From Eledone cirrhosa (Eukaryota): a stretch of 64,000 nt of DNA. The stretch covers positions 40,858,001 through 40,922,000 of the forward strand of contig OZ024747.1 of the NCBI GenBank assembly GCA_964016885.1. The letters are read 5' to 3'. Positions 16,566-17,300 of the stretch are shown in pieces. The notes beneath the pieces were generated by a model. It ran no database searches and was not told the DNA's origin. It saw nothing but the letters and a program-made list of their open reading frames with translations. Each line of letters begins with the position of its first letter. Within the stretch, counting starts at the first letter, position 1. The translations under genes and the position numbers were made by a program.

Positions 16566-17300
16566 TAAATGGAATAGAATGAAACGAAATTTCATTTCTC
16601 ACTCTTAGTACGGCATTTACTTAAATGTAAGTATGTATGTATGTATACGTACATACATATATGTATACAGACGTACAGTAGTATGTATATATATATACAT
16701 ACATGTACACATATATACATGCACGTATCGGTTTACCGAACATTTATTATAATGCTCGGTTTGTTTGTAAACAAACAGCCCGAATTACGCCGTACAGTGT
16801 TTAGGCAACCACGTCACCTTTTTTGTTCAACACTGACACAGGAACGATGTACTAGTTTCAAGCTTATTAGCTATCGTCAGCATCGTATACCTTCCTGCCA
16901 GATGGTTGAACGTCTGAAAGTATATACTTTCCTCATGCATATTAACGGCTGAGCAGCCTAATTTGCATATCGAGTGAGTTCAGTCGGTTGGGCGCACCGA
17001 AAACGATAAATGGAATAGAATGAAACGAAATTTCATTTCTCACTCTTAGTACGGCAGTTACTTAAATGTAAGTATGTATGTATGTGTACGTACATACATA
17101 TATGTATACAGACGTACAGTTTACAAACAAATATATGTATACAGACGTACAGTTTACAAACAAACAAACCGAGCATTATAATAAATGTTCGGTAAACCGA
17201 TACGTGCATGTATATATGTGTACATGTATGTATATATATACATACTACTGTACGTCTGTATACATATATGTATGTACGTATACATACATACATTCTTACA
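16566..17300 (-). mobile_element. ORF-less retrozyme/PLE-like element: 441-bp unit + partial tandem repeat + inverted arm
   Basis: 16566-16679 repeated at 17007-17120; ~17150-17295 is the reverse complement of ~16625-16770; contains a hammerhead; flanked by (TA)n. Confidence 0.8.
16844..16886 (-). ncRNA. Minimal type-I hammerhead ribozyme (43 nt)
   Basis: Minus: ACGATG CTGACGA T AGCT-AATA-AGCT T GAAA CTAG TA CATCGT; perfect 6-bp stem I, palindromic stem III ACUAGU, GUA site. Confidence 0.9.

What the first reader, a model, noticed from the sequence alone, without database searches (positions are those of the whole stretch)
16566..17300. Candidate retrozyme: 441-bp monomer with partial tandem repeat and a near-ideal hammerhead
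Seen: about 1.25 units in tandem plus an inverted arm, no ORF, and a 43-nt hammerhead with palindromic stem III. Established: non-LTR retrozymes are short hammerhead-bearing tandem repeats that give circular RNAs. Inference: the partial tandem came from reverse transcription around a ~441-nt circular or multimeric RNA by a PLE RT.
Basis: partly seen in the sequence, partly recalled or inferred. Interest (0 to 1): 0.75.

Follow-up and report, generated by a model that had tools for sequence, protein, structure and literature searches.

The report
Penelope-pasted hammerhead retrozyme with U6-like promoter
This is one likely dead-end copy of a 441-base non-coding repeat, present in thousands of places in this animal genome, that carries a predicted self-cutting RNA and a likely built-in promoter and bears the same insertion marks as the genome's Penelope jumping genes, which likely copy it, possibly from a small RNA circle.

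Summary
Observation confirmed. The minus strand holds a 441-bp unit, 114 bp of a second unit, an inverted arm and a type I hammerhead. The hammerhead is less ideal than claimed: family-wide U·U at 10.1-11.1 and a 2-bp stem III. The family is large (4,002 exact hammerhead matches) and head-to-tail; no sampled copy joined an ORF, so it is not just a pLTR. It inserts into (TA)n, with ragged 5' ends and two fixed 3' ends. Two-armed copies pair one long with one short end (52 of 54), as do a sister family (25 of 25) and an autonomous Neptune-like PLE here (10 of 10). Each unit carries two conserved boxes matching those upstream of this genome's U6 genes. Units within short insertions look copied from one sequence, which fits a circle. 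An uncut linear tandem RNA is not excluded, long arrays show local recombination, and no RNA data were available. This copy has one hammerhead and probably cannot release a monomer. Verdict: new member of the animal non-LTR retrozymes (non-autonomous PLEs). The scan noted sister families, two-armed ends and the promoter earlier on other DNA.

The parts
16566..17006 (-). Full 441-bp unit (unit position p = 17007 - coordinate); outer end is the 'long' 3' end
   Evidence: family search
17007..17120 (-). Upstream partial unit (positions 328-441), 5'-truncated
   Evidence: 114 nt, 2 mismatches
17121..17159 (.). Inversion junction with a 33-nt local duplication
   Evidence: (D8)
17160..17304 (+). 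Inverted arm (unit positions 239-385); outer end is the 'short' 3' end
16844..16886 (-). Type I hammerhead: complete core, U·U at 10.1-11.1, loop II AAUA, 2-bp palindromic stem III, predicted cut 16850|16849; bulged distal stem I reaches 16892/16840
16958..16969 (-). Octamer-containing box matching the box 76-78 nt upstream of this genome's U6 genes
   Evidence: 1.5% divergence against 4.5-6.3% in flanks
16919..16928 (-). TATA box, 42 nt after the octamer box (46-48 nt in the U6 genes)
   Evidence: 1.9% divergence
16566..16621 (-). Optional ~56-nt 3' 'tail' with a hairpin between the two inferred reverse-transcription start sites
   Evidence: analogy to PMC11167929
16550..16565 (.). (TA)n at the long end, inferred target
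   Evidence: family pattern
17301..17445 (.). (TA)n-rich tract at the short end, inferred target; no TSD can be discerned

Best explanation
This is a 5'-truncated, two-armed insertion of a high-copy non-coding hammerhead repeat that is likely a non-autonomous Penelope-like element (animal non-LTR retrozyme), likely transcribed from its own U6-type promoter and likely pasted into (TA)n by a borrowed PLE protein copying one unit-length, probably circular, RNA from both ends of the DNA break. Steps: (1) Shown: tandem non-coding units, dispersed in thousands, at (TA)n, with two fixed 3' ends about 56 nt apart and ragged 5' ends. (2) Inferred: loci with two or more units are transcribed from the internal box+TATA and read through into the next unit. 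(3) Inferred: two adjacent hammerheads pair through the palindromic stem III and cut at GUA to release a cut-to-cut monomer. A host ligase would circularise it, and a lone hammerhead would cut the circle poorly. (4) Inferred: a PLE RT-endonuclease, probably Neptune-type and dimeric, nicks both strands of (TA)n; one strand primes at the long site and the other at the short site. Copying runs through the cut site and the unit junction, and the two cDNAs are joined head to head. (5) Shown for long arrays: later local duplication or conversion. The window copy, with one hammerhead, is likely a dead end.
For: 4,002 exact 31-nt hammerhead matches, control 0; 26,042 box+hammerhead units for the wider superfamily, control 3. 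Position 1 follows the unit's own tail in 69 of 80 segments; the other 11 are inversion junctions, decayed tails or truncations with no shared foreign sequence. 3' ends lie at 370-399 (57 of 130) or 430-441 (56 of 130), mostly followed by (TA)n. One long plus one short outer end in 52 of 54 classifiable two-armed insertions (p 1.6e-13; 18 of 72 unclassifiable), 25 of 25 in the 466-bp sister family and 10 of 10 in an autonomous RT+GIY-YIG element with a 784-aa ORF. The optional tail is the stretch between two internal RT start sites in vitro (PMC11167929). Adjacent units differ at 12% of subfamily-diagnostic sites against 41% for random pairs, share rare variants (22 of 449 against 93 of 29,408), show no upstream/downstream bias at 43 sites, and differ 4.8% against 5.6% at other sites. 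Variants mirrored between arm termini: 1 in 20 insertions of this family and 0 in 19 of the sister family. No pile-up of 5' ends at the cut site (7 of 228 within 6 nt). Hammerhead stems I and II change on both sides between families while the core is fixed (6 of 17 pairs). Promoter boxes match U6, not U2, upstream regions and are about 3-4 times more conserved than their flanks.
Against: No RNA, cleavage or circle was observed. In vitro, hammerhead cleavage was not needed for PLE insertion and uncut RNA was the main substrate (PMC11167929). U·U at 10.1-11.1 departs from the conserved G-C (PMC4209133), and 8 of 9 predicted Xenopus retrozyme dimers did not cleave in vitro (bioRxiv 10.64898/2026.07.22.740005). 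Long arrays share variants between non-adjacent units (31-mer of the sister family; L286, L180, L246), so arrays also grow locally. In L286 one unit of each arm shares a 5-variant tract, which fits a mixed multimer template or gene conversion. Inverted arms share rare variants slightly more than tandem neighbours (15 of 166 against 22 of 449, p 0.08). T4-T5 runs in the units should stop Pol III, and box-TATA spacing is 4-6 nt shorter than in U6, so the polymerase is unsettled. The covariation reflects essentially one family split, not many events. No autonomous partner with shared sequence was found.
Confidence: 0.6

Rival explanations
1. Same non-autonomous PLE, but the template is an uncut linear read-through RNA from multi-unit loci. 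The hammerhead is weak or a passenger, and arrays are renewed by local duplication, with no circle.
For: Uncut RNA is the dominant PLE substrate in vitro (PMC11167929). U·U in stem II. Local expansion of long arrays. Cross-arm shared tract in L286. cDNAs cross the cut site intact, which an uncut RNA also explains.
Against: No position-specific differences between upstream and downstream units and no mirrored variants between arm termini in short insertions. The core is kept, with compensatory stem changes, across clearly diverged but alignable families. A homogeneous source array would hide these signals, so this is not excluded.
Confidence: 0.32
2. The unit is only the pLTR or 3' remnant of an ORF-bearing PLE, and the copies are ordinary 5'-truncated insertions.
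For: All insertion marks are those of PLEs, and ORF-bearing PLEs with hammerhead ends abound in the window and the loci. Only the first 100 of 4,002 and 100 of 5,042 matches were listed, so a rare long version could be missed.
Against: Period is 441 bp with tail joined directly to position 1 (69 of 80); arrays of 2 to 9 units in one arm have no ORF between units; no shared foreign sequence upstream in 86 hammerhead-anchored and 35 tail-anchored loci; internal U6-type boxes.
Confidence: 0.05
3. DNA-level element (foldback/MITE or satellite) whose hammerhead look is incidental.
For: Long inverted arms; TA-rich self-complementary segments; local tandem growth in long arrays.
Against: Polarised structure (fixed 3' ends, ragged 5' ends), arms of unequal length and content, long/short rule shared with an RT-bearing PLE, motif in 1 of 5,000 shuffles, covariation.
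Confidence: 0.03

Closest known systems
Metazoan non-LTR retrozymes (Cervera and de la Pena 2020, PMC7229834; Li, Clavereau and Pollet 2026, bioRxiv 10.64898/2026.07.22.740005)
   Same: Non-coding tandem units with a type I hammerhead, low GC (36-37%), monomers to multimers, proposed PLE mobilisation.
   Different: Unit is above the 170-400 nt of the 2020 paper but within the 51-972 bp range of the preprint. U·U at 10.1-11.1. Circular RNA not shown here. Two fixed 3' ends, coupled arms and a (TA)n target are not described in the passages read.
EN+ Penelope-like elements (Neptune/Poseidon; PMC8557442, PMC3846280, PMC11167929)
   Same: Partial tandem, 5' inverted arm, optional 3' tail at one end, microsatellite target, hammerhead.
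   Different: No ORF; tail about 56 nt rather than 30-40; internal U6-type boxes. No sequence match to the Neptune-like element of this genome beyond a short 3' motif.
Non-autonomous Chlamys PLEs such as MRC1 (PMC8557442)
   Same: Non-coding, multicopy head-to-tail, PLE-type insertions.
   Different: Those resemble their autonomous partner at the 3' end, and most Chlamys lack a hammerhead; no such partner was found here.
Newt satellite 2 and axolotl retrozymes
   Same: Short stem III needing a hammerhead dimer (PMC7229834, PMC4209133); internal snRNA-type promoter (Coats 1994, seen only as cited in PMC2220036).
   Different: Newt promoter is reported as Pol II; here the boxes match U6, not U2, upstream regions, with shorter spacing.

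Membership tests
Non-LTR retrozyme | Short non-coding unit in head-to-tail tandem | tested here: met
Non-LTR retrozyme | Type I hammerhead in each unit | tested here: met
   Core complete and stems covary; 10.1-11.1 is U·U
Non-LTR retrozyme | Two or more consecutive hammerheads ('active' copy, Li et al.), at family level | tested here: met
   12 of 86 positionally sampled loci have 2-6 tandem hammerheads
Non-LTR retrozyme | Two or more consecutive hammerheads at this locus | tested here: not met
   One hammerhead only; this copy is an offspring, not a source
Non-LTR retrozyme | Self-cleavage in vitro | not testable with these tools
   No bench data
Non-LTR retrozyme | Monomeric linear and circular RNA in vivo | not testable with these tools
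   Only contig runs of unknown kind were offered
Non-autonomous PLE | Partial tandem, 5' truncation or inversion, optional 3' tail, microsatellite target | tested here: met
   same pattern in an autonomous PLE
Non-autonomous PLE | Sequence shared with an autonomous partner | tested here: inconclusive
   Only a short 3' motif shared with the Neptune-like element; other PLE families were not surveyed in full
Autonomous PLE (pLTR remnant) | RT + GIY-YIG ORF between the repeats | tested here: not met
U6-type (type 3) Pol III unit | Upstream box and TATA as in host U6 genes | tested here: inconclusive
   Both boxes present and conserved, but spacing is 42-43 against 46-48 nt, whole-region alignments are not significant, and T4-T5 runs lie inside the units

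The most novel reading that the evidence does not exclude
A self-transcribing viroid-sized RNA circle carries its own U6-type promoter and a dimer-only hammerhead. It is copied by one dimeric PLE protein whose two RT sites are obliged to start at the two different tail sites of the same circle and run round it from both strands of the break. The 52/54, 25/25 and 10/10 long-plus-short rule would then be the genomic record of a general two-strand PLE insertion mechanism.
Probability: 0.35. Interest if true: 0.75.

Novelty: new member of a known kind. Interest (0 to 1): 0.5.

Why it matters
PLE mobilisation of animal retrozymes, and copying from a circle, are proposed but not shown in the papers read. 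Here a retrozyme family and an intact autonomous PLE in one genome leave the same insertion footprint, and the strict pairing of one long with one short end constrains how the two strands are primed. A small template with defined start sites and a candidate enzyme make the step directly testable in the existing in vitro PLE assay. The superfamily has about 26,000 promoter-plus-ribozyme units, so it may also be a large unannotated RNA source. This particular copy is an ordinary dead-end product.

Tried and rejected
Rfam scan gave no hammerhead, only hairpin look-alikes. No RNA holder was listed; contigs of 4 runs of unknown kind cover the unit in three organisms but cannot show ends, strand or circles. 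RNA-editing scars: a raw A>G over T>C excess (1.46, p 0.002) vanished once CpG-decay contexts were removed (0.84-1.04), so it is not used. The 31-unit array of the sister family looked like rolling-circle proof but shows recurring shared variants, i.e. local duplication, so it is not used as support. Circular MFE z of -5 to -9.5 is inflated by TA-rich palindromes and given little weight. Partner search: 35 tail-only sites, 13 of 30 hammerhead-like hits with other stem II lengths (mostly unpaired chance hits) and the Neptune-like element (no hammerhead, no box, best match E 0.03) gave no partner. U2 upstream regions lack the box. Whole-promoter local alignments of U6 upstream regions to the units were not significant against shuffles; the match rests on the two boxes. 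A paper search on 10.1-11.1 mismatches returned nothing relevant. Coats 1994 was not held. A look-up of earlier notes by sequence found none.

Full report
Observation. The window lies in a 3.0-Gb animal genome. Earlier scan notes call it a cephalopod; I did not test that. A 441-bp unit (17006 to 16566, minus strand) is preceded by 114 bp of the same unit with 2 mismatches. An inverted arm at 17160-17304 equals unit positions 239-385, behind a 33-nt junction duplication. (TA)n flanks both ends. A 43-nt type I hammerhead lies at 16844-16886, with a predicted cut between 16850 and 16849, after unit position 157. My motif scan fired in 1 of 5,000 shuffles. It is not ideal: 10.1-11.1 is U·U (137 and 139 loci carry T at these two columns), stem III has 2 bp and a 2-nt loop, Rfam missed it, and its fold alone is ordinary (z -0.97).

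Family. An exact 31-nt hammerhead pattern has 4,002 matches (control 0) and a tail pattern 5,042. I fetched all distinct sites among the first 100 hammerhead matches (86 loci on contig 1), 35 tail-only sites and the 30 best BLAST loci. Unit position 1 follows the unit's own tail in 69 of 80 segments. The other 11 are inversion junctions, decayed tails or truncations with no shared foreign DNA. Of the 86 loci, 74 have one hammerhead and 12 have 2-6 in tandem; the window copy has one. A 466-bp sister family aligns over the whole unit, and box-plus-hammerhead units total 26,042 (control 3). Across 11 variants, 6 of 17 pairs change on both sides while the core and the stem III palindrome stay fixed; this is essentially one family split, not six independent events.

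Insertion marks. Of 130 terminal segments, 57 end at positions 370-399 and 56 at 430-441, mostly followed by (TA)n; 5' ends are ragged. Prompted by an earlier scan note, I tested whether the two ends are coupled. Of 72 two-armed insertions, 54 could be classified, and 52 have one long and one short end (p 1.6e-13). The window copy follows the rule. The sister family gives 25 of 25 (1 unclassifiable). An autonomous element with RT and GIY-YIG domains, a 784-aa ORF and (TA)n targets gives 10 of 10, counted by eye. I call it Neptune-like from recalled motifs, not from a tree. The optional tail at one end is known for PLEs (PMC3846280, passages; PMC8557442, passages and section 15). In vitro it is the stretch between two internal RT start sites, and both DNA strands are cut and extended (PMC11167929, parts 1-2 of 4). 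That paper saw no strand difference in start site; it reports no test of coupling in the parts read.

Template. In 128 adjacent unit pairs from 94 loci, subfamily-diagnostic sites differ at 12% against 41% for random pairs. Rare variants are shared in 22 of 449 cases against 93 of 29,408, and none of 43 sites shows an upstream/downstream bias. Other sites differ 4.8% against 5.6%, so most differences arose after insertion. Variants mirrored between the two arm termini number 1 in 20 insertions of this family and 0 in 19 of the sister family. Only 7 of 228 5' ends fall within 6 nt of the cut site, so a cut linear monomer is not the main template. This fits repeated copying of one sequence, as from a circle, the route proposed in PMC4209133 (passages) and PMC7229834 (passages and Discussion). 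Against it: long arrays share variants between non-adjacent units, and in L286 one unit of each arm shares a 5-variant tract. Uncut RNA was the main substrate in vitro (PMC11167929), and 8 of 9 predicted Xenopus dimers did not cleave (bioRxiv 10.64898/2026.07.22.740005, parts 1-3 of 5). A homogeneous linear multimer is not excluded. I put circle use at about 0.6 and linear at about 0.3.

Promoter. The best-conserved non-ribozyme stretch between the families is an octamer-containing box (16958-16969) with a TATA box 42 nt later (16919-16928). I fetched 30 U6 loci; 11 distinct upstream sequences were printed. Nine carry this box, exactly or with one or two changes, at about -76 to -78 and a TATA box at -30; two do not. 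The nine come from three separate sites, one being a tandem array. The 9 distinct U2 upstream sequences lack it. The boxes diverge 1.5% and 1.9% against 4.5-6.3% in their flanks. A start near unit position 111, at the 5' edge of the ribozyme, is predicted. Spacing is 4-6 nt shorter than in U6, and T4-T5 runs occur in the units, so Pol III read-through is doubtful and the polymerase is open. Newt satellite 2 has an snRNA-type promoter (seen only as cited in PMC2220036, passages).

Mechanism. Shown: non-coding tandem unit, high copy number, PLE-type ends, long/short coupling, single-subfamily insertions, conserved boxes. Inferred: transcription from multi-unit loci, dimer cleavage through the palindromic stem III (established for such hammerheads, PMC4209133), circularisation, and two-strand priming by a PLE protein. 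The partner is unidentified; the Neptune-like element shares target, tail logic and a short 3' motif only. Expression could not be tested with the runs offered.

Novelty. It works like, and meets the testable sequence criteria of, an animal non-LTR retrozyme (non-autonomous PLE); the RNA criteria are untested. Paper searches returned no listing that describes this family or the long/short coupling. A 2026 Octopus repeat annotation has no occurrence of 'ribozyme' or 'retrozyme' in its main text (PMC13282606, passages). Its repeat library and the preprint's supplements were not seen and may list the unit under another name. The scan has already noted sister families, two-armed ends and the promoter on other DNA of this genome. 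Verdict: real; new member of a known kind; interest 0.5, mainly for the testable insertion rule.

Noticed in passing
window 15012-15460: Two-armed insertion of another hammerhead element (hammerheads at 15062-15128 minus and 15264-15330 plus). One arm ends about 56 nt and the other about 147 nt after the cut, again short plus long; relatives are common in the loci.
   Followed up: partly
window 15485-16550: 3' untranslated end of the autonomous Neptune-like PLE (short end at 15485), abutting the finding; many identical copies with intact 784-aa ORFs exist.
   Followed up: partly
window 17725-18042: Small two-armed insertion of a related Neptune-like 3' end, long end left and short end right.
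   Followed up: no
window 8559-8621, 10673-10735, 34320-34391, 34946-34995: Four further type I hammerhead motifs of other families.
   Followed up: no
window 13390-14231: Near-identical 438-bp tandem duplication (98-99%) unrelated to the unit, without a hammerhead; it overlaps minus-strand open frames with no Pfam hit for the one tested.
   Followed up: no
window 17446-17700: tRNA-headed SINE-like element between (TA)n tracts (tRNA match 17457-17514).
   Followed up: no
window 20870-21496, 41251-42024, 56730-63732: PIF1 helicase fragment (Helitron-like), mariner-type transposase fragment and LINE RT/zf-RVT fragments.
   Followed up: no
G000:C1:5738327-5752443 (L207-L235): 31-unit array of the 466-bp sister family with a 5' inverted arm; units are 99.5% alike with recurring shared variants.
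   Followed up: yes
G000:C1:95646608-95680466 (L261-L268): Higher-order repeat of 2,817 bp, about six sister-family units.
   Followed up: no
L236-L244: Older subfamily with C·A (one locus, L206, C-G) at 10.1-11.1 and a GUU cleavage triplet; this position varies (U·U, C·A, G-C) while the core is fixed.
   Followed up: partly
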